A stretch of DNA of 63,839 nucleotides, filler included, from Sphacelaria rigidula (lineage: Eukaryota), in the NCBI GenBank assembly GCA_964200075.2. It is 11 parts of 11 records of this genome, joined end to end, with 100 filler letters (N's around TTAATTAATTAA, not from the genome) between each part and the next. Parts side by side here need not be neighbours in the genome. Positions count along the whole stretch, not along the records: positions 40,692 to 46,403 come from CAXNAA020025047.1; 10 more parts are not named here. One strand, given 5' to 3'. The first letter of the stretch is position 1. Every line of letters starts with the position of its first letter. The notes under the pieces were generated by a model. The model made no database searches and had not been told where the DNA came from. It saw nothing but the letters and a program-made list of their open reading frames with translations. This document shows positions 31,025 to 46,503 of this stretch, one piece after another. Both the position numbers and the translations under genes were made by a program.

Positions 31025-31834
31025 TCACGTTCTTCTGTGTTGGATTGTAGATCCAAAACGACTTGCTGTCCACGCTGTATCCACAGAGCCGTCCTTCTGG
31101 GGGTCGAGCTTCTTGGTGTGTGTTTCAAGGTCAACACACGCCCTGGCCCCGATAACCCGGAGATGCCCAAGGTTTGCCTCCTTGCCGTAGAAGCCTTTGT
31201 ACGGTGTGACATTCCCCAGTGCTGCATGCGGCACCCGGTTCGCTAGGTATACCGTGGTTTGCATAATAAGTTCTCCCCACAGAAAGTTCGGCAAGCCGGA
31301 GTCCGCGAGAAGGCAGCGCGCCATCCCGGCGAGAGTCCTCCCGTCACGCTCGCAGGCACCAATCTGCTGTGGTGTGTTTGTTGAGGCGAACTGGTGTCGA
31401 ATGCCAGTCTGAAGACAGTAGTTCTTAAACGCATCGCCGGTGTACTCTCCGCCTCTATCCCGGCGGAGGCGCTCGACTCGAAACTCACTGGGAACTACGA
31501 GCCCTTGCGCGAGCATTTCAAGAGAGTCGAGGGGGTCGCTTTTGTCCTTGATGAATATCTCCCTCCACTTGGTCACCTGTTCGGTGAACTTGCGGACGTA
31601 GTTGTAGCCCCCCAACGCGGGAGGAGTGATGGGCCCCAAAAGGTCGGTGTAGATTAGTTGAAAGGGACGGGTGACGTTGTAGGTAGCTTCCGTGGGGTGA
31701 GATTGTTGTGTGCTTTTCCCGATGGCACAGACATCGCAAGCTGACACGTCCCCGTCGTAGTTGGTGCCGTTGCCGTCCACCTTCTTCAAGATATCCAGAC
31801 TCCTGCGGTTGACGTGTCCCAAACGCCGGTGCTA
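31025..31834 (-). pseudogene. Copia integrase remnant (rve core)
   Basis: HHCC and DDE motifs. The conserved Trp of LWHRRLGH is mutated to TAG at 31832-31834. Confidence 0.9.
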
Positions 31835-34800
31835 CAGATTCGCCGACTCTGCTCGCATGGCTGTTCCCGTTGTTCCACCCCTCAGATCCAACGAAAAAGA
31901 GTACAACAATTCGTCGCCCCCAAGCCGTTGTAACGGCAGAGTGATGCTTTCCATCTCCATGCGCGATTGAACAGAGTCGAAAATGGTAACAGTCCCCATG
32001 TTTGATGCCGCAGCTACTGAAAAGAGGTGCCGTCCCAGACCAGGCACGATGATGACCGAGAGTGAAACCGAGTTCTTTCCCCCGTCTCGTTCAGTAACAG
32101 TACCAGAATGGTGCCCGTCGCGACGCCTTCCACGATGTGTTTACCAGCGGTAACAATCCTGTGAGGCTACTTCCGCTTCGCTAGGTTTGTCATCCGGCGT
32201 TGAATTCCGGGAGCGAGGTCGCTGCCCAGGTAGTGCGCAGATGCACCGCTATCCACCAGCATGATCAGGGATGTGCTGTTGATGTCGTCCCTATTGTGCC
32301 CCACCGAGCCCAAAGCCGTTGGCGTAGCCACGTATGACTCCCCATCCGGAACTTCGCCAAATACCCCAAATAATCCCCGTGTATCTACAGTTCGTTGCTC
32401 AAGTGTTTTCTCCGGGGTCGGTTCAAGAACGAAGAATAAATTGTCGGGCTCTTCCAGCTCTTGGACTCCTCTGTCACCTTCGCGAGCGTAGTCCCGACAA
32501 ATGTGAAGGAAAAACCAAACGTTGGCTGTTCGGGGTCTGCTGTCTGGGCAATTCGCGCCCTGCCGGTGTTGACAAAGTTGATGCTACGAGCTTGTTCCTT
32601 CTTTGTAGGCTTCTGCTTGAAGCACTGCTCGTCGCTGTGACTTTTTGTCTTGTGTGAAGAACGCCACTTGGAATTTCCGTCTCCTCCTTCTTTCCAGTGC
32701 TTCGTCTTTTGCCTCTGCTGTTTTTAGTGCTCCTGTGATCTCTGTCGCAGAGGTTTAGGGCATGTGCTGCGACGGTGCCCATATTTGTCGCAGTTAAAGC
32801 ACTGGATGCTGCTGAGGTCGCAGTGCGCCGCCTGCATGGCCACGCCGCGGCCCACAACAAATTTTGTGGATACGCGAGCAAGGTTGTCGATGAACATGTT
32901 CCGCATGGTGGACTTGATCTCCTTCAACCCGTAGTTGCGGTCACGGAAGCTGGTCTGTCGTACAAAGTCGTAGTCGTTCGTGATGGAGTGCAGAATGATG
33001 TTCTCGTAACGCTCGTCAGAGACCACCTCTCCCATGCCATGCAGCCGGGCCCGCAGGTTGTCTATTTTATGCAAGAAATCCTCCGGATCCTGTCTATGCT
33101 GCATCTTTGTATTGCACAGCTCGTCGTGGCATACTCGTCGCGTCTCTTTCGTGTCATATTTGCCCGCAAGGGCTTTCCAGACAGCAATCCCATCGCCGAG
33201 TCCCTCCTACTGCCTCCGGCCCTCGTACTCTACAGATGACAGATGACCCACCAGGGCGCTCAAAGGGTTGGACACAATATACAGAATGGATATACGCCTC
33301 ACAAATCGGTTTCAAAACCAAGTCAGACCAACAAATCCCTACCGAATGGTGAAACTCACTGCAGCAAACACTCATTTTCCGTATATGTTGTGCTGGGCAT
33401 GCACCCTTACAAGAAGGTTACGAATTACGAAGAGACAGACGATGCTGTTCGTGTACCCAGCTGTGCAGTGAACTCAAGGTGATCGGTGTGGCTCGCTTAA
33501 CCCTTAGACCGCGAGATTAGTTTTTAGTCTTTTTTGATCATGCATACTTTTTCCCACTTGAAATTGATGCCGATTCAACAGAAGACTAAGTCCTGTTGAG
33601 TGCAGCTGTTCGCTGTGCGGTTCCCGGAGCCGTCGCGGCGTCAAGAGGTTTGAATCGGAGTTACTTTTGTGCGTGTCCTCATGCATCATGTGTGATGTGT
33701 ACCCAGTAACACAGAAGCAACAGCATGGCGACTGGCGGAGGTATAGGGTGTGGCGTGTACTGCAGAAGACATCACCATGCCGACCGTAGTATGCCGTTCT
33801 GTTTGTTGCAATTGTGTGTGTTTGGTCGCGTAAATCATTTGTGAAGGTATAACGTCGTTTATTCATCTCATTCTGTCACCCCCGTAGACATATCCAGACC
33901 TGTCTCCGACTGCGGGACAATCACCCGTGTTCCCGGAAAGCGGTAGCTGGTACACACACACTACAGTGCAGCTGGTTACGATGCAGACCTCACAGCTGGT
34001 TCGAACGGCGGTCAGTGCAAAAGTGCAGTGCAGTGCAGTACAGTACAGTATCGAGGTCGTGCATCTCGCGGCGTTGTCATCGGCACTGTCTGTTTCACAC
34101 CGTCGTGACTCAGGGGTTCAAGGACACTTCGTGAATGGTAGATCTCGGACACAATTTGCAAAAATTTCCTTTATATTTTGGCCCCGATTAGCCTGTATCA
34201 CACTACAGTGCAACAGTACAACAGTGCAGTAGCAAGGTGGTGAAACATGCAGGGTGAAGTATATACAAGGTGGTGAAACATGCAGTACCAAGGTGGTGAA
34301 ATAGAATTGGGTTCAGGCGAATTTTGAGGTTTTCGATCGATAGAAGCAAGTGAAATTCGTGAAGCGGTACTTAGTCGCTTGTGAACAGCACAGTCTGCGG
34401 TACTTCGTAGCTTGTGAACAATACAGTCTGTACAGTCTGTACTGTCTGCACTGTTAGCATGCAGGGTGTCTGGATGTGTCCGTGCGTATTTCGTACGGTA
34501 GGATGTGAACCAAAAGCAGGCAACGTGCAGTACAAACAGCGCGAGACTATCTGTTCTTCTTGAAATACAATGAGACGTGAAAAGGACTCGGACACCGAGC
34601 AGTCATTCACTTTTTTCACAACATCGCACAGTAGTACCACGTATATAGAAAATAAACTGGTACGCTTTTCTGATGAGACCCACAACATATGGGAACACGA
34701 AACACGATGATCGAAGTTTGAACTCTTGAAGTCTGAAGCCTGTCGGCCTATCTGGTGACGAATCACGCCGCATGGAGCNNNNNNNNNNNNNNNNNNNNNN

Positions 34801-39976: not shown

Positions 39977-40741
39977 TATCGCATCTGTGTGATTTCTTCT
40001 TGTACGATAAGTGATTATAAATGATTTCGCTCCATGTTCGGGTCATTTGTCTTTCACCACGGGAAGCGTCCGCGTGATGTGTCTGGTACAGAGCAATGTC
40101 CTGATGTCGGTGCGGTTCAAACTGTGACGACAACAAAAACAACAACTACAACGACAAACTGGGCACACGGACCGTGCTTTATCCCCAATCCACATCCCCG
40201 CGAGTATACAAACACCCATCAACATACTTTTCGCCACAAATATTGGATCCCGAGCATTGGCGGGTCATGATAATGCGAGGGGGCAAGGATCATCCCCCCG
40301 GGAGCAATGCAACGGCAGTGGCGCGCTTCTTACGCAAATCTTGTCCGGTTCAGGGGCTTTTAGCGATTGTAGGCGCAGAAGAATATGGATCAGGGTACCA
40401 CCGTTTGCAAATGACTGCGGGATGTTCATAGCATATTGGGAAATAATCCTGGTGTACTCACATATTTCATAGGCCGTGTTTTGGATTAGATTAAGGGCTC
40501 CTGACAATTCCAACCTCAGGAACAAAAAATGTGAATCCCCTACGAGCTGGGCCAGCCTAAAAACGGATTTAAGCTCTAAAAGCAATATCTCNNNNNNNNN
40601 NNNNNNNNNNNNNNNNNNNNNNNNNNNNNNNNNNNTTAATTAATTAANNNNNNNNNNNNNNNNNNNNNNNNNNNNNNNNNNNNNNNNNNNNCTCGTCCCC
40701 CCCAAACCAAGGCGGTGGGGGGGGGGGGTGCTGTGGTGTCG

Positions 40742-40773
<32 letters not shown>

Positions 40774-41813
40774 ATGGATTCGGCCTCGGCTAGAGTTGTC
40801 TCCCCATATTCCCCCTGCCGTTGACAGATATGCCCGAGTACTTGTACACTGGAGTAGAGTTCACCAACACATTATCAGCCTCTCCGTCGGACTCCCTTTC
40901 TCGCGAGTATTTATAAACGTATCGAGCATAAAAAATGTTTTTGCTGTTCGAAGCAAGGCAGCGATACGTCGTCGTTACGCCGAAACACATGGAAAAGCAG
41001 AAGAAGGGGGATCCCGTGGTGAAGAAAACAGGTGTGTCAAACTACACGCTCCCGCTGCACCCGTGAATGTGTCGGTCACTCATCTTGCCACGGTGTAAAC
41101 TGTGCGCACAGAACAGACCTGTTCCATACTTGTATCGGAGATTCATTTCCACGCTCAGCATACCACCTTTCCACAACCAAAGTAAAACGTGTGAGCAGTA
41201 TGTTGCTGTTCATCCATTTCAAGACAAAGAAAACATGCTTTTTCACACCTTCCTCCAAAGTTTCGGAGAACCGCGCGAGCGAGTGAACCCGGAGATATGC
41301 CCGAAGACGGCAGCCCGCCAAAATGTACACCCGGGCCATCGCCAGTGCGGCAGCCTGACTCAGCCTGGCTCCTGGTCGATACAGCATGTTTCTCCGGAAG
41401 ATTGGAATGTAGACCGCGTGATCGGAAAACCCTGCATTGCTTTTCAACATCCTTGTTGGTGTACGCAGATTGTTTCGTGCAAGTCTCTGCATCACCCCAC
41501 CGCGAAACAAATGCACCTCGTATGGTAAGATTACCGTGTCACAAGTGTGTTTCTGTTTTTCCCCTGTTTTCTCCTATTTGTATTCGTATTATGACGCGAA
41601 AGGTTCTTCTCTCTTCGACCCGGTCATGATTTACCGCAAACTCGCTTTCATTTGAAAGGGCACTGCCAGCACGGCCGCAACGTTGCCATGTACGGACTCA
41701 ACGTAGAGTGTGGGCACCAATCACCTTTGCTCGCCATTACTATCTTACAGAAGGCGCAGCGAGCGCCACCAGAGCTACAGCACACGAGTTGCGAGCGCCA
41801 GAAAACGACTCGC

Positions 41814-41973
41814 CTTCCGATCGATTTCACAATAGCGTAGAAGTCCCGCAGTCCCAAGAAGTCTGGAAGTTTTTGCTGCTCGTACACCGCACAGTACGCC
41901 CGTGCCATTCCTGCCAAGATATCGGGATGAGCCGCCCACCCACGAGGGTCCTCGCTATCGCGGAGGAGCATAC
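41814..41973 (-). CDS. RNF213: RNF213-like AAA+ ATPase exon (…ARAYCAVYEQQKLPDFLGLRDFYAIVKSIG)
   Basis: Matches the RNF213 motif FFGLRDYYSLIK. Phase-1 CCAG acceptor is compatible with the preceding exon. Probable GC donor AAG|GCGAGT. Confidence 0.8.
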
Positions 41974-42348
41974 CTGGTTTCAGGTGGACAAAGCGAGTAA
42001 TTATATATATATTATCTTTCGGCGGGAAGTTTGTGGTGTTCTCTCTGTCATGGATATAATTTAAGAATCGGCTGCACGATGCTGAGGTTGTTACGCAAAC
42101 AATCTGTTGTACCAGGTACCACCAGCGTGCTGGGCACCATTTTTACCGCTCTATTCTGTAGACCCCTGTAAAACGTAAAACCGCAACCACGTCGCCGTGG
42201 TGTCGATACGTGACAACCAAAACGAGTAGTTGGCATCTCAAGCAAACATGAAAACCGACATTTAGCCGTGAGTACTGTCTAATAATGCCCTGCTCCAACT
42301 ACCCCAAAGAAAAAAGCGATAATGGTAATGCATTCCACCACAGGGCAC

Positions 42349-42496
42349 CTTTCGCCGTGAGGGTGAGATCCTCTACAGTCGGCGCTGGACGATGAAGGTG
42401 AACAGCCCTGTTCATCTTGGCGGAGTCAAGCTCCCAGTTGGAGATCCCTACCACAGTTTCACCTTTTTCCGCCTCGTCCAAGATCTTGTGCAAGAC
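42349..42496 (-). CDS. RNF213: RNF213-like exon (VLHKILDE..VVGISNWELDSAKMNRAVHLHRPAP)
   Basis: GISNWxLDxAKMNR is a hallmark RNF213 sensor/Arg-finger motif. AATAG acceptor, AAG|GTGCCC donor. Confidence 0.9.
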
Positions 42497-43079
42497 CTAT
42501 TTCAATCAATAAAAATGTAGCTTTGGTTCAGCCACCATCCAAAAAAATAGCAGAGCGCTACCACTACCTTTCGCATATCCTCGTTTCGAAGTTTCTTGGC
42601 TTGCTCTACAACGTCTTCCCAATACTGCTTGTGATAGTGACGGACAGCTTGTTGCACTAGAATTCCTTTTTTACGTGTATTCTGCCCAAGCATCTTGTTT
42701 TGTTATCCCATCACACTACGTATAGATAAGTGCGATGGTTTCGCAGGCACGCGGAGATGGTGCGCGCAGAAAAGGGAAATTGACGATCAGCGGGATGACG
42801 AATAGGTATTTGTCAGGGGTATAACGTGAAAACCACAATGAGAAGGATGTCTACCCCGGGAATTAGCAGCGCAGGCGTAAAATAACTTCCCAAACGACGT
42901 GCTTCCAGTCATTCTCGAAATGTCTTCGTCGGGCAGTCGCATGGAATTTGCCTTGAAGGTCTCAAGGCATTGGTCGAGCCACGAAGTTGAGGTGCTGCTT
43001 GACACTAGGTTATTTGACTCACGCCGTGAAAGGGAACACCGTTCAGAGCTTCTTCTGCGTTCTGCGTTCGGTCACCCAC

Positions 43080-43187
43080 CTTGAGCGGAAGGTGCGGGGA
43101 TTGCTCAGCAAGACCGACCTCGTCCAGCAACACGAGTACCACCGTGTTGGGTGCCGTCTCGCGATACCTCCTGGCGAGGTTAAATGT
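43080..43187 (-). CDS. RNF213: RNF213-like exon with Walker B (VLVLLDEVGLAEQSPHLPLK)
   Basis: Matches the RNF213 motif VVVLDEVGLAEDSPxMPLK. TACAG acceptor, AAG|GTGGGT donor, 108 bp, phase 0. Confidence 0.92.
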
Positions 43188-43483
43188 CTGTATTTCGCAG
43201 CAACGGTTCATCATATTTGACGATACAAGAATACTTTCGTGGGTGCTCGATTTCCCGCATATCGGGGAAGAAGCTGGAATGTCTACGTGCGCCTACTCGT
43301 ACTGCAAGTGAATGGCATGCCTTCCCTGACACTCTACCCATCAAAGGGAGATGGCGAAGCACTTCGGAGGTCATTTCTTTTCAACGGTGTCGCGATCACG
43401 ACTCGGTTGAGAAATCTGGCGTTTTATGCCCGCATCATCAGCAAAGTATGCTCGTTCGGAGGTGAGCTCGAGAACATTCGCAC

Positions 43484-43743
43484 CTGCAGGATCCCGTGGC
43501 TAGTGCTCTGCGGCGAGCACTGGTGGGAGAACATTTCCACGGCCGGGAACGATCTCAGGAACGCATTCGAGCTTTCTCGCCCCTTCAAGCTCCTCACGAG
43601 AATGGTCACGGCCAGCGATTTTGAAGACCCAGGCTTGCCGACCACGAAGACGGAAAAGCTGTTCAGAACGCTCACTAGCAGGACGAACAGGTTTTCGCAT
43701 AGCGCTTCGTTCCGGGCCACCCCGCGCCCAAGGTCCATGTGCT
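43484..43743 (-). CDS. RNF213: RNF213-like exon with Walker A (ARNEALCENLF..VVGKPGSSKSLA..QCSPQSTSHGI)
   Basis: Matches the RNF213 motifs AxNxALxENxF, VGKPGSSKSLA and QCSPxSTxxGI. TCCAG acceptor, CAG|GTGCGA donor. Confidence 0.92.
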
Positions 43744-44824
43744 CTGGACGCACAACAAGAGTGCCGATTCAGGGGACAGAGTCAGTTCAACGATAGTAGA
43801 GGGGGCTAATATCATCCGTTGTTTGGGGTGTTTCCCTTCTAGCTTGTTCCTATAATACCCACCACCTTGAACGTGTACAGTACAGAGACTGAGCTGGAGG
43901 GGGCGGGGGAAGACTGTAAATTCCTCTCGCCCTTTCATCGTTGAGCGAGTCTTCACACAATGCACCGCGTGATACCGGTGGTGTAAACCTTTGCTTCGTG
44001 CTATCACAGACCGGCGTATGTCTCGTTACAGATGTATTGAAGTTGATAATTGAATGAATTACGCACAAAGCGAATCATGGTTGTCTGGCGCGGGGAATGG
44101 CCGAGGTCGTCACTTTCCTCACGGCACTCATATGAGAATAATGCCGAGTCATGCTACGATAAGGGGGGGGATGTTCGATGCTACGAAGAAGAGGGCTCAT
44201 ATTTGTGTCATAAAATCCACCACACTCTCGGCGTGCTTCTGTTTGGGTAAAAATGGCGTCGCGCAATATGCATGGGCGTTATTTATCGGTAATAAGTGCG
44301 TTCGAACAGCTGTTGCTGCTTTCAACGACGAGTTGAAGTGGAGTTTCGCGAAAAGCATGGCCCAAATTACCCCTTCCCCCATCGTAGTATCAATCTACCA
44401 TACAAATTCCAATCCAAGTTGGACATGGCTGTCGAGTTCCGGAGAAAGCGAGCTCGTCAAGCCAGGTGACACCCTGTGTGGCATGACAACATCTATATCG
44501 GTTTTATTTGGAAATAGGCTGCGAAGAACACCCTCGTGATTGACATGATACCACATGTGATGGGCCTTTCATTAACTTGTATCTTCATTAACTTCATTAC
44601 ATTATATACCTTCAAGCACTTGTGTAGTATGTACCTGGTGGTAACCGTTTTCGGTGGAGATGCGTAGCGCGCCCTTCAACCATTTGTTTCTGATAGATAT
44701 CCTTACCTCCCTCTGTCTATGCACCCCTGGGCCTACGAGAACATAGTTCATATTCAAGACAGCGGCTTGGATGCTAACTCTGTGTAATTGCGGCCTCCTC
44801 CGTTGCAACATACTGTATGCACAC

Positions 44825-44955
44825 CTGCCGTGTTCTTGATGATGCGGTGCACAGTGACATGGAAGTATCTCTCCGGCATGTTCAGCCACCCAGGGACATG
44901 CTGCATGGATGTGATCGCCCGACATAAATCCCTCACCAGCGTAATCCGGTCGTTC
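44825..44955 (-). CDS. RNF213: RNF213-like exon (RNDRITLVRDLCRAITSMQHVPGWLNMPERYFHVTVHRIIKNTA)
   Basis: TTACAG acceptor (phase 2) and CAG|GTGTGC donor (phase 1) bridge the flanking exons exactly in frame. Confidence 0.65.
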
Positions 44956-45129
44956 CTGTAACCCGTCAGGTCGGCCCATGATGTAGATAGCAATGCATAA
45001 AGAACACGGCATCAAATTATATCCGTCAGATTGAAGCTTACAAAGAGCTCAGTTTTACCCGTTGAGGAGTGCAACCCTATTCCCGCTGTAAGCACCGTCA
45101 CGTGGGGACCATCCTTGTCGTTCAATCTC

Positions 45130-45420
45130 CATCTAGGATATCATACCTACGTGGGATGCCCATCGGGAACATCATATTCCTGTTGGATGCTAATCTACGA
45201 TACTATTCCCACGTGGGATGTCCGTCTGGGATATGGATACCCATCTGGGATATCTATCGGAGACATTGATATCCATCTGCGACGTCCATCTGGAAGATGC
45301 ATCCGGCATATCCATCTGGGATGTGGTGAGATAGAGACTGGATATTATTCATTTTACTTTGACGCCCATATCCTGGATGCACATTCCACGCGAATATGAT
45401 ATCTCAGATGGACGTTGCAC
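45130..45420. repeat. CATCTGGGAT/GGGATG-rich degenerate repeat in RNF213-like intron
   Basis: Multiple CCATCTGGGAT/GTGGGATG motifs in both orientations. Confidence 0.55.
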
Positions 45421-45551
45421 GATGACACAAGACCGTAGAACGTCCAAAATCTCATTTGTAAAGCGTAGAGGAAACAGTAGCGTTTTTTCCGAGCTGTGCT
45501 GCGGATGACTAAAAATGAGTGGATACGACAAACATAATCTGAATGCCTCAC

Positions 45552-45650
45552 CTGTGAAGGCGGACTAGGTATGAGTATGCCAGGGCCAAGATCATTGCTT
45601 CCCTGGCTGCAGTCCTCGCCGGTCGATCATCACACCGAAAGAATCTGGCC
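45552..45650 (-). CDS. RNF213: RNF213-like exon (…AREAMILALAYSYLVRLH)
   Basis: Resembles the RNF213 helix SLxLAxGxCY. CAG|GTGAGG donor, phase 2. The 5' boundary is uncertain. Confidence 0.55.
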
Positions 45651-46503
45651 CTACTCCTCTCTCGCCAGCCGTAGTCTACGCCACCGACGACCCCTCTATG
45701 TCCATGTACCACCCACATTTTCCCGGTCCATAGAAAAACCTTGGACGGAGAGGGCGTGGGGGGTGGGTGGGAGGTGTACTCATGATCTTGCGTGCCATTG
45801 TCATTCGGCCATTGGCCTCGCATGCCTACAAAGCCGGGACAGAGCACGTCGGCTTTCCGCTGGACCAGGATCGCAACCACCACGCGCGAAGCGCTGTGAC
45901 GTGTTCGGCGAGTCGCGTGAAGGGTGCGCTATCTCCTGCTACAATTATCAGGTCCGAAGCGTACGGATTATCTTGCATATGGATGGCGACATCGAATGAG
46001 CTGCTTCATATTCCGGTGTCACCACTTCCAGCCATCTCCTTTGCGCGGAGTTCAGGTTCTCCCGCCCCACAGGATATGACGTAGCTCAACCACCGGTATG
46101 GTTACCGCGAAAAAATGCGAGCGAAAAAAAAGGACTGGTATCCTGGTTGCGTAGTTTCGCGTAGAGTGGCGTGTTGTACAGCGGCGTCATTGCCAACAGA
46201 CGCCAACGCTCAAGGTCGGCGGGAGGGGGAAGGGGGGCGTACTCATTTGTTGCTCGCTTTAGGCGTTTAACCATTGACCACGCATCCCTTTCGAGACGGA
46301 GGCGGCGGGGGGGGGGGGGGGGGGGGGGGGCCCCCATTTGTGTGTTCCTTGGGTTTTTTGCCCATGTCCCCCCCCCCCCCGTCGGGGGGGGCCCCCCGTC
46401 CTCNNNNNNNNNNNNNNNNNNNNNNNNNNNNNNNNNNNNNNNNNNNNTTAATTAATTAANNNNNNNNNNNNNNNNNNNNNNNNNNNNNNNNNNNNNNNNN
46501 NNN

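What the first reader, a model, noticed from the sequence alone, without database searches (positions are those of the whole stretch)
41814..45650. RNF213/mysterin-like giant AAA+ ATPase in a non-animal (probably brown algal) genome
Seen in sequence: six minus-strand exons splice in frame with compatible phases. They give NEALCENLF, Walker A GKPGSSKS, QCSPQST, Walker B LLDEVGLAEQSP, GISNWELDSAKMNR and FLGLRDFY in the RNF213 order. Established: vertebrate RNF213 is a dynein-like AAA+/E3 ligase that ubiquitylates bacterial LPS and acts in cell-autonomous immunity. Inference: an intron-containing, apparently intact homologue points to a little-studied intracellular pathogen-sensing or ubiquitylation system in this lineage. 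The RING/RZ-finger region is not in the window, so E3 activity is unproven.
Basis: partly seen in the sequence, partly recalled or inferred. Interest (0 to 1): 0.72.

Follow-up and report, generated by a model that had tools for sequence, protein, structure and literature searches.

The report
RNF213-like ATPase gene fragment, brown alga
A short brown-alga contig carries seven intact exons from the ATPase core of a relative of the animal immune ubiquitin ligase RNF213, but such relatives turn out to be widespread in non-animal eukaryotes, so this is a modest addition.

Summary
On the minus strand of window 41249-45739, seven exons join in phase through GT-AG introns into 371 codons without a stop. 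The three core exons match only RNF213 among solved structures (9 of 9 hits, best E 1e-33). They cover the second active ATPase unit (AAA4), with the Walker A lysine and Walker B glutamate kept.

Three qualifications:
- **The window is not one locus.** It is 11 contigs of about 5.7 kb joined by spacers. The gene sits on a 5712-base contig (40692-46403) and runs off both ends. About 7% of a protein expected to be about 4900 residues long is visible. Neither its giant size nor its intactness can be judged from the window.
- **The core exons are already public.** They are in NCBI as an unnamed partial protein of Sphacelaria rigidula.
- **Non-animal relatives are common.** They occur in Thecamonas, Naegleria, dinoflagellates, Cercozoa, Physarum, a fungus and Ectocarpus fasciculatus. 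They keep the AAA core and the RZ finger and usually lack a RING. One subclade has a U-box there instead.

No expression data were available. An immune role is inference only. This scan noted RNF213 relatives before, in Naegleria.

The parts
40692..46403 (.). The 5712-base contig that carries the finding. The rest of the window is other contigs joined by 100-base spacers (44 N, TTAATTAATTAA, 44 N).
   Evidence: The N runs recur every 5812-5813 bases. NCBI protein P0006 is recorded on a contig of 5712 bases.
45552..45739 (-). Exon A, the end of the lid before AAA4 (VFLW...LALAYSYLVRLH). It has a strong polypyrimidine AG acceptor and a GTGAGG donor, and ends in phase 2.
   Evidence: It is weak alone (E 0.4; tblastn E 0.045 and 0.26) but collinear, and it is included in BLASTP alignments that run from residue 1.
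44825..44955 (-). Exon B, a variable linker before AAA4. AG acceptor, GTGTGC donor; phase 2 in, phase 1 out.
   Evidence: It has no significant match of its own. Support comes from the phases, the matching length of this stretch in relatives, and the continuous alignment.
43484..43743 (-). Exon C, the start of the AAA4 large domain, with NEALCENLF, the Walker A motif and QCSPQST.
   Evidence: Solved-structure hits to RNF213 at E 3.4e-14. Profile E 5.8e-43.
43616..43639 (-). Walker A codons, GKPGSSKS. The lysine aligns with residue 2815 of chain 8s24, which is human K2775 if the construct carries a 40-residue tag; that numbering is recalled.
   Evidence: Alignment and sequence.
43080..43187 (-). 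Exon D, with the Walker B motif.
   Evidence: Profile E 1.8e-20.
43119..43142 (-). Walker B codons, VVLVLLDE. The glutamate aligns with the RNF213 AAA4 Walker B glutamate, which is human E2845 by recalled numbering.
   Evidence: Alignment and sequence.
42349..42496 (-). Exon E, with GISNWELDSAKMNR and HLHRPAPTVEDL. It ends in phase 1.
   Evidence: Profile E 6.8e-31.
41810..41973 (-). Exon F, with ARAYCAVYEQQ and FLGLRDFY. The donor is uncertain: GTCGTT after 41810, or GTGTGC after 41786. Both are phase 0.
   Evidence: Profile E 5.8e-11. Both models are open and score alike.
41249..41364 (-). Exon G, new here, with LARAVLRNFGG. AG acceptor, GTGTGA donor; it ends in phase 2, so the gene continues beyond it.
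   Evidence: Profile E 0.011. tblastn gives 65% identity over 20 residues to the Thecamonas protein. Sequence.
44130..44511 (.). Dispersed repeat inside intron B-C, at about 80 times the depth of the unique parts.
   Evidence: Depth bins: 5502 against about 70 in X1, 1319 against about 14 in X3, 2676 against about 30 in X4.
45773..46403 (.). High-copy repeat upstream of exon A that runs to the contig end and probably caused the assembly break.
   Evidence: Depth reaches 88730 against about 70 in X1, with many joints and loose ends from 45773 onwards. It is 71-84% identical to stretches on window contigs 4, 5 and 11.
40743..40772 (.). G30 homopolymer near the other contig end. A G24 run lies at 46307-46330.
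   Evidence: Similar runs lie on several other contigs of the window.

Best explanation
This is a middle piece of a nuclear, intron-rich gene of the brown alga Sphacelaria rigidula that encodes a member of the RNF213 family of giant AAA+ ATPase / E3 ubiquitin ligases.

Shown here: seven exons (371 codons) encode the tail of the preceding lid, the whole large domain of the fourth AAA unit (AAA4), and the start of its small domain. AAA4 is one of only two catalytically competent units in mouse RNF213. The Walker A lysine and the Walker B aspartate-glutamate are kept.

Inferred from relatives, not shown:
- The full protein has about 4000-5000 residues.
- It has a six-unit dynein-like ring followed by an E3 module that ends in an RZ zinc finger.
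- It may or may not carry a RING or a U-box.
- ATP binding at AAA3/AAA4 acts as a switch for ubiquitin transfer through the RZ finger.

Its cellular role in the alga is unknown. A part in ubiquitylating intracellular invaders or lipid surfaces, as in vertebrates, is the most likely guess. I give that about 0.3.
For: 1. Family.
- Exon C matches 9 RNF213 chains at E 3.4e-14 to 2.9e-13. The only other hit is a GTPase at E 0.38.
- Exons C-E (P0006) match 9 of 9 RNF213 chains, best E 1.1e-33, with Walker A and Walker B aligned.

2. Gene structure.
- Seven exons, six GT-AG introns of 296-1081 bases, compatible phases, no stop in 371 codons.
- One profile domain at E 2.8e-134.
- Identity is 42-49% to relatives over single alignments. 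For four of them the alignment spans all 371 residues; for the Thecamonas protein it spans residues 32-371 (its residues 2397-2748 of 4928).

3. Host.
- The identical protein is NCBI CAN0062103.1, filed under Sphacelaria rigidula, on a 5712-base contig.
- The upstream repeat is shared with three other contigs of the same assembly.
- The ratio of repeat depth to unique depth is similar in three DNA runs from two studies, about 1270, 1520 and 1430. This fits one genome rather than a contaminant.

4. Architecture of relatives.
- P0047 matches RNF213 AAA4-AAA5 at E 2e-88, and also part of the E3 module and the RZ region.
- 7 of 7 long non-animal relatives scanned carry AAA domains plus an RZ finger.
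- 7 of 7 in a second set carry an RZ finger, and 6 of those 7 a U-box.

5. Competence of AAA3/AAA4 and dispensability of the RING in mouse RNF213: passages read in PMC7311170.
Against: - Only about 7% of the expected protein is visible. Both ends lie beyond the contig, so truncation or decay elsewhere cannot be excluded.
- No RNA run holds the stretch, and the four runs laid behave as DNA (even depth over introns, no splice joints). Neither splicing nor expression is shown.
- The fragment sits on a long branch (0.6 and 1.12 changes per column).
- Differences between the reads and the assembly in exons are 3 synonymous and 3 non-synonymous. The synonymous ones are two in exon F in X5 and one in exon D in X4. 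The non-synonymous ones are E>K in exon D in X4, and R>K and T>I in exon A in X1/X3 near contig ends. This gives no clear sign of constraint.
- No annotated orthologue from another named brown alga appeared among the listed hits. The one named brown-algal relative (Ectocarpus fasciculatus, P0142) is only 36% identical and falls in another clade.
- Pfam gives no significant family for single exons.
Confidence: 0.85

Rival explanations
1. It is a decaying gene relic (pseudogene fragment) stranded between repeats. The seven exons are the last well-kept part of a gene that is no longer functional.
For: - High-copy repeats lie in one intron and directly upstream, and the contig breaks in them.
- The terminal branch is long.
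- The public annotation calls only three exons as a partial product.
- Exonic differences are 3 synonymous to 3 non-synonymous.
Against: - 371 codons without a stop or frameshift, and six canonical GT-AG introns with matching phases.
- Walker A, Walker B and the most conserved family motifs are intact.
- Repeats in introns are normal for a repeat-rich algal genome.
- The long branch may simply be the undivided brown-algal lineage. The closest unnamed relatives (75-76% identical, P0007 and P0008) were too short to include in either tree.
Confidence: 0.1
2. The contig comes from another eukaryote living with the alga (an endophyte, epiphyte or protist), not from Sphacelaria itself.
For: - The contig is short and unplaced.
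- The nearest full-length relatives are unnamed environmental or protist sequences, and the Thecamonas protein is the most identical named one.
- The named brown-algal relative belongs to another clade.
Against: - The upstream repeat family is shared with three other contigs of the assembly.
- That repeat stands at more than 1000 times the unique depth, with a similar ratio in three runs from two studies.
- The stretch is held by 5 runs, 4 labelled with one organism and 1 an algae metagenome that carries 18 substitutions and one 4-base deletion.
- Intron sizes of 296-1081 bases fit the intron-rich genes of brown algae; that comparison is recalled, not tested.
Confidence: 0.04
3. It is an AAA+ protein of another dynein-related family (midasin, dynein heavy chain, MoxR) and only superficially RNF213-like.
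For: The only Pfam signals for exon C are sub-threshold bpMoxR (E 0.0051, 16.4 bits against a cut-off of 27) and the dynein P-loop family AAA_7 (E 0.059). The Atlas feature search also lists dynein-type clusters at scores of 0.87-0.89.
Against: - All 9 solved-structure hits at E <= 0.01 are RNF213.
- Relatives that are 64-73% identical in this region carry the RZ finger, the Pfam domain shared by RNF213 and ZNFX1.
- Pfam has no model of the RNF213 AAA4 unit itself, which explains the weak generic hits.
Confidence: 0.01

Closest known systems
Vertebrate RNF213 (mysterin); solved structures 6tax/6tay, 7oik, 8s24, 9g08, 9jw1
   Same: The AAA4 large domain aligns over about 165 residues at E 1e-33 with Walker A and Walker B conserved. 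Close relatives of the algal fragment also match AAA5, part of the E3 module and the RZ finger in the same order.
   Different: Identity is only about 35-45%. The animal proteins form their own clade (SH-aLRT 100). The RING that names the family was not found in any of the 7 long non-animal relatives scanned. The N-terminal stalk, the E3 module and the RZ finger of the algal protein are not in the window.
Unnamed protist or environmental RNF213-like proteins with a U-box and RZ finger (P0047, P0054, P0056, P0061, P0063, P0064, P0173)
   Same: They are the most similar long proteins in the core exons, at 67-73% identity over 169 residues. They fall in the same 61-row group in the longer tree (SH-aLRT 94).
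   Different: The algal fragment is not nested in the well-supported U-box cluster, and its own C-terminal part is unseen. Whether it has a U-box is open.
Thecamonas trahens AMSG_01915 (P0174, 4928 residues: AAA, RZ finger, RanBP zinc ribbon, CBM20)
   Same: It is the most identical named full-length relative, at 49% over 374 aligned columns. It has an AAA core and an RZ finger.
   Different: It has no Pfam RING or U-box, it carries extra N-terminal domains, and it belongs to a distant lineage (Apusozoa).
Ectocarpus fasciculatus partial protein P0142 (2173 residues, RZ finger)
   Same: It is another brown-algal RNF213-like protein with an RZ finger.
   Different: It is only 36% identical to the 7-exon product and lies in a separate clade with SH-aLRT 100. 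It is a different, anciently diverged lineage, not the orthologue.
Naegleria gruberi NAEGRDRAFT_79490 (P0205), noted earlier in this scan
   Same: It is a giant protein (4953 residues) with AAA domains and an RZ finger and without a Pfam RING.

Membership tests
RNF213 family (giant AAA+/E3 ligases) | Best similarity is to RNF213 rather than to other dynein-related AAA+ proteins | tested here: met
   9 of 9 solved-structure hits at E <= 0.01 are RNF213, best E 1.1e-33. The only non-RNF213 hit for exon C is a GTPase at E 0.38.
RNF213 family (giant AAA+/E3 ligases) | Catalytically competent AAA4 unit (Walker A lysine, Walker B glutamate) | tested here: met
   GKPGSSKS and LLDE align with the RNF213 AAA4 motifs. 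Competence of AAA3/AAA4 is taken from passages of PMC7311170. Sensor and arginine-finger residues were not mapped.
RNF213 family (giant AAA+/E3 ligases) | Six AAA units in one polypeptide of about 4000-5200 residues | not testable with these tools
   Only 371 codons lie on the contig, no genome is held, and the other 10 contigs of the window carry no further pieces. Relatives reach 4928-4956 residues.
RNF213 family (giant AAA+/E3 ligases) | C-terminal E3 module with an RZ-type zinc finger (PF20173) | not testable with these tools
   It is not in the window. It is present in 14 of 14 relatives scanned.
RNF213 family (giant AAA+/E3 ligases) | RING finger in the E3 module | not testable with these tools
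   It is not in the window. Among relatives, 0 of 7 long non-animal proteins show a Pfam RING or U-box at E <= 0.1, and 6 of 7 in the other set have a U-box instead. Mouse RNF213 is active without its RING (PMC7311170).
Dynein heavy chain / midasin / MoxR AAA+ | Pfam AAA_5, AAA_7 or bpMoxR match above the curated cut-off; best structures are dynein or midasin | tested here: not met
   bpMoxR scores 16.4 bits against a cut-off of 27, and AAA_7 scores 13.3 against 25.8. No dynein or midasin chain appears among the structure hits.

The most novel reading that the evidence does not exclude
RNF213-type ligases are an ancient, pan-eukaryotic machine whose working core is the AAA ring plus the RZ finger. 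The RING would be an animal-side feature. One protist subclade has a U-box at the same place instead. [quoted passage not shown] Brown algae would keep two anciently diverged lineages of this machine. The Sphacelaria gene would be an active one that marks intracellular invaders (bacteria, oomycetes, integrated or lytic phaeoviruses) or lipid surfaces with ubiquitin, placing this branch of cell-autonomous immunity before the origin of animals.
Probability: 0.2. Interest if true: 0.7.

Novelty: new member of a known kind. Interest (0 to 1): 0.35.

Why it matters
RNF213 is studied almost only in vertebrates, as the moyamoya disease gene and as a ligase that ubiquitylates bacterial lipopolysaccharide. 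The structure paper I read describes it as expressed in all vertebrates (PMC7311170).

My full-text searches found no paper that deals with RNF213 in these groups:
- RNF213 with 'stramenopiles': 0 papers.
- RNF213 with 'brown alga': 1 paper, unrelated.
- RNF213 with 'Naegleria': 0 papers.
- RNF213 with 'diatom': 13 papers hold both terms, 10 were listed, and none of the listed titles or abstract openings concerns algae.

A brown-algal member adds one more lineage to a family that the databases already show to be spread across eukaryotes. The wider point comes from the relatives rather than from this window. The AAA core and RZ finger travel together everywhere, while the RING does not. That agrees with the finding that mouse RNF213 works without its RING. 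For brown algae, whose immune systems are poorly known, the gene is a candidate worth testing under infection, but nothing more than a candidate.

Tried and rejected
- **Whole genome.** None is held, so paralogue counts, the rest of the gene and the depth of other algal genes could not be obtained.
- **RNA evidence.** No RNA holder is listed. The four runs laid are contigs with even depth over introns and no splice joints, so they behave as DNA. This says nothing about expression.
- **Pfam on single exons.** Nothing reaches a cut-off. Exon F alone gives no hit among solved structures.
- **Other contigs of the window.** tblastn with 8 and then 9 relatives found only chance-level hits outside the contig (E 0.09 and 0.42). 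Long ORFs of the other contigs gave only Ty1/copia pieces.
- **Viral origin.** 11 pattern matches in viral contigs were found, and none encodes a relative. A single-protein query reaches only close relatives.
- **Protein Atlas.** It returned only generic AAA and dynein-type fragment clusters, mostly from animals, which was not informative.
- **Earlier notes of this scan.** There are none on this genome or on this sequence.
- **Polymorphism as a test of constraint.** Six exonic differences, 3 synonymous and 3 non-synonymous, are too few to decide.
- **Placement in the U-box clade.** The short tree puts the fragment in a polytomy with the U-box forms. The longer tree puts it on a long branch beside another long branch at the base of the group. 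This is unresolved.
- **An upstream frame at 45826-46005.** It has a vague likeness to the preceding lid motif. I rejected it because it duplicates the FLW motif that lies in frame in exon A, and because it sits inside the high-copy repeat.
- **Supplements.** The supplementary alignment of PMC7311170 is a PDF and was not seen. It may list invertebrate orthologues.
Full report
**What the window is.** The N runs come in pairs (44 N, a 12-base all-frame stop spacer, 44 N) every 5812-5813 bases. The 63.8-kb window is therefore 11 separate contigs of 5713 or 5712 bases laid end to end, not one locus. The finding lies on the eighth contig, window 40692-46403. Nothing outside it is genomic context. 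No whole genome is held.

**The observation.**
- NEALCENLF, GKPGSSKS and QCSPQST
- LLDEVGLAEQSP
- GISNWELDSAKMNR
- FLGLRDFY

I located the splice sites in the sequence and joined the exons in a script. The model is A 45739-45552, B 44955-44825, C 43743-43484, D 43187-43080, E 42496-42349, F 41973-41810 (or 41786) and G 41364-41249. All six introns (296-1081 bases) begin with GT and end with AG, and five of the seven donors begin GTG. The phases fit, and the product is 371 codons with no stop.

A profile built from nine relatives matches the product as one collinear domain at E 2.8e-134. BLASTP gives single alignments spanning residues 1-371 to four relatives at 42-46% identity, and 49% to the Thecamonas protein over residues 32-371. 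Exons A and G are weak alone, and exon B has no match of its own. Their order, their phases and the continuous alignment carry them.

**What it is.** Exon C alone finds nine RNF213 chains among solved structures (E 3.4e-14 to 2.9e-13), and otherwise only a GTPase at E 0.38. The public three-exon product P0006 finds only RNF213 (9 of 9 hits, best E 1.1e-33). In that alignment the Walker A lysine and the Walker B glutamate match those of the second active ATPase unit, AAA4. By my recalled numbering these are human K2775 and E2845. The structure paper states that only AAA3 and AAA4 of mouse RNF213 are catalytically competent (PMC7311170, passages read). Pfam gives only sub-threshold generic hits for the exons, and no midasin or dynein chain appears.

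**Whose gene it is.** The top database hit is 100% identical. It is filed at NCBI as CAN0062103.1, 'unnamed protein product, partial [Sphacelaria rigidula]', on a contig of 5712 bases. That protein is exons C-E, starting at an internal methionine.

Five sequencing runs hold the stretch. Four carry one organism label and one is an algae metagenome from a second study. The four I laid cover introns and exons evenly, at about 65-75, 10-18, 25-35 and 2-6, with contigs running across exon-intron borders and no splice joints. They are DNA and say nothing about expression.

The same table shows a repeat at about 80 times the unique depth in intron B-C (44130-44511). It also shows one at more than 1000 times the unique depth from about 45773 to the contig end. 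The ratio of that repeat's depth to the unique depth is about 1270, 1520 and 1430 in three runs. The repeat is 71-84% identical to stretches on three other contigs of the window. This argues that the contig belongs to the main, repeat-rich genome and not to a minor contaminant. It also explains why the assembly broke here. A scan of viral contigs found no relative.

**How much of the gene is here.** In the Thecamonas protein the 371 residues correspond to 2397-2748 of 4928. Exon G ends in phase 2 at a donor site, and exon A begins at an acceptor. The conserved blocks that flank this region in relatives are absent from the remaining contig sequence. The gene therefore runs off both ends, and about 7% of it is visible. 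'Giant' and 'intact' are inferences from relatives. Differences between the reads and the assembly in exons are three synonymous and three non-synonymous (my codon reading). That is too few to show constraint.

**The family outside animals.** Searches with a 2011-residue relative (P0047) found 951 proteins of 1106-3520 residues and 1099 of 3521-5000 residues at E <= 1e-10. The best 120 of each set were listed. Named non-animal members include:
- Thecamonas trahens
- Naegleria gruberi and N. lovaniensis
- Amoebophrya
- Prorocentrum cordatum
- Polarella glacialis
- a cercozoan
- a Physarum transcript
- the fungus Entrophospora
- Ectocarpus fasciculatus

My own Pfam scans show an RZ finger in 14 of 14 relatives. 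Among seven long non-animal proteins, none has a RING or U-box at E <= 0.1.

A subclade has a U-box instead: 11 of the 120 listed and 2 of the 120 by precomputed Pfam, and 6 of the 7 that I scanned. In P0047 the U-box (1368-1440; E 2e-14 to a RING-type E3 ubiquitin transferase chain, 7c96, and about 1e-13 to U-box protein 12) lies between blocks that align with RNF213 on either side. Linear interpolation between those blocks puts it where the mouse RING (3941-3999) sits. That placement is an inference, not an alignment. [quoted passage not shown] A common core of AAA ring plus RZ finger with a changeable E2-docking domain therefore looks plausible.

**Placement.** I built two trees.
- *Tree on 169 residues (123 rows).* I left out hits covering fewer than 150 residues and five near-duplicates. 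The fragment falls in a 29-row polytomy (SH-aLRT 84) that holds the U-box forms, apart from the animal clade (SH-aLRT 100) and from the clade with the Ectocarpus fasciculatus protein (SH-aLRT 97).
- *Tree on the 371-residue region (87 rows).* I left out rows covering fewer than 300 residues, rows under 38% identity that were neither named nor U-box forms, and 17 rows of one cluster. This was a quick search under LG+G4. The fragment sits on a long branch (1.12) beside another long branch at the base of a 61-row group (SH-aLRT 94). That group contains the U-box forms, Thecamonas, the cercozoan and the dinoflagellates. The fragment is again apart from the Ectocarpus fasciculatus clade (SH-aLRT 100) and from Naegleria.

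Brown algae therefore appear to carry two anciently separated RNF213-like lineages. Whether the Sphacelaria protein has a U-box cannot be told. The closest relatives (75-76% identity, P0007 and P0008, unnamed) share the lineage-specific HQCSPQSTS and break off at the same exon end.

**Literature.** The full-text searches are listed under Why it matters. In addition:
- RNF213 with 'last eukaryotic common ancestor' found 4 papers, of which 2 were listed, and their titles and abstract openings do not concern its evolution.
- The search was too loose to be informative.
- The search returned only two ZNFX1 preprints.
- Subscription papers are not covered.

This scan noted RNF213 relatives in Naegleria before. 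My Pfam scan of the Naegleria protein agrees with that note on the RZ finger and on the lack of a RING.

**Verdict.** It is a new, fragmentary member of a known and widely spread family. Its interest is modest and lies mainly in what the relatives show about the family.

Noticed in passing
window 1-63839; spacers at 5714, 11527, 17340, 23153, 28966, 34779, 40592, 46404, 52216 and 58028: The window is 11 contigs of 5713 or 5712 bases joined by 100-base spacers (44 N, TTAATTAATTAA, 44 N). Any finding that relies on linkage across these points is void. Five 10-N gaps also lie inside contigs.
   Followed up: yes
window 40743-40772 and 46307-46330: G30 and G24 homopolymers lie near both ends of the contig. 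Similar runs occur on at least seven other contigs of the window. They may be assembly break points or sequencing artefacts.
   Followed up: partly
window 45773-46403 and 44130-44511: Two dispersed repeat families stand at about 1000 times and about 80 times the unique depth in the DNA runs. The first is shared with contigs 4, 5 and 11 of the window. No Pfam family was found in their long ORFs.
   Followed up: partly
window 31028-31831 and 32727-33206 (contig 6): Pieces of a Ty1/copia retrotransposon: integrase core and GAG-pre-integrase domains, copia-type gag and a zinc knuckle.
   Followed up: no
window 45214-45319 (intron A-B): Degenerate tandem repeats of 32 and 13 bases.
   Followed up: no
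relatives P0047, P0054, P0056, P0061, P0063, P0064, P0173 and P0184 (not in the window): A subclade of RNF213-like proteins carries a U-box (PF04564), by interpolation where animal RNF213 has its RING, together with the RZ finger. The full-text search of RNF213 with U-box, RZ-type and unicellular returned only two ZNFX1 preprints.
   Followed up: partly
relative P0142 (Ectocarpus fasciculatus, not in the window): A second brown-algal RNF213-like lineage exists. It is 36% identical to this one and lies in a separate, well-supported clade.
   Followed up: partly
window 45612 and 45615 (exon A): Runs X1 and X3 differ from the assembly at two nearby bases. Both changes are non-synonymous in my frame (R>K, T>I), and both lie close to the ends of the read contigs. 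They may be assembly or contig-end errors.
   Followed up: no
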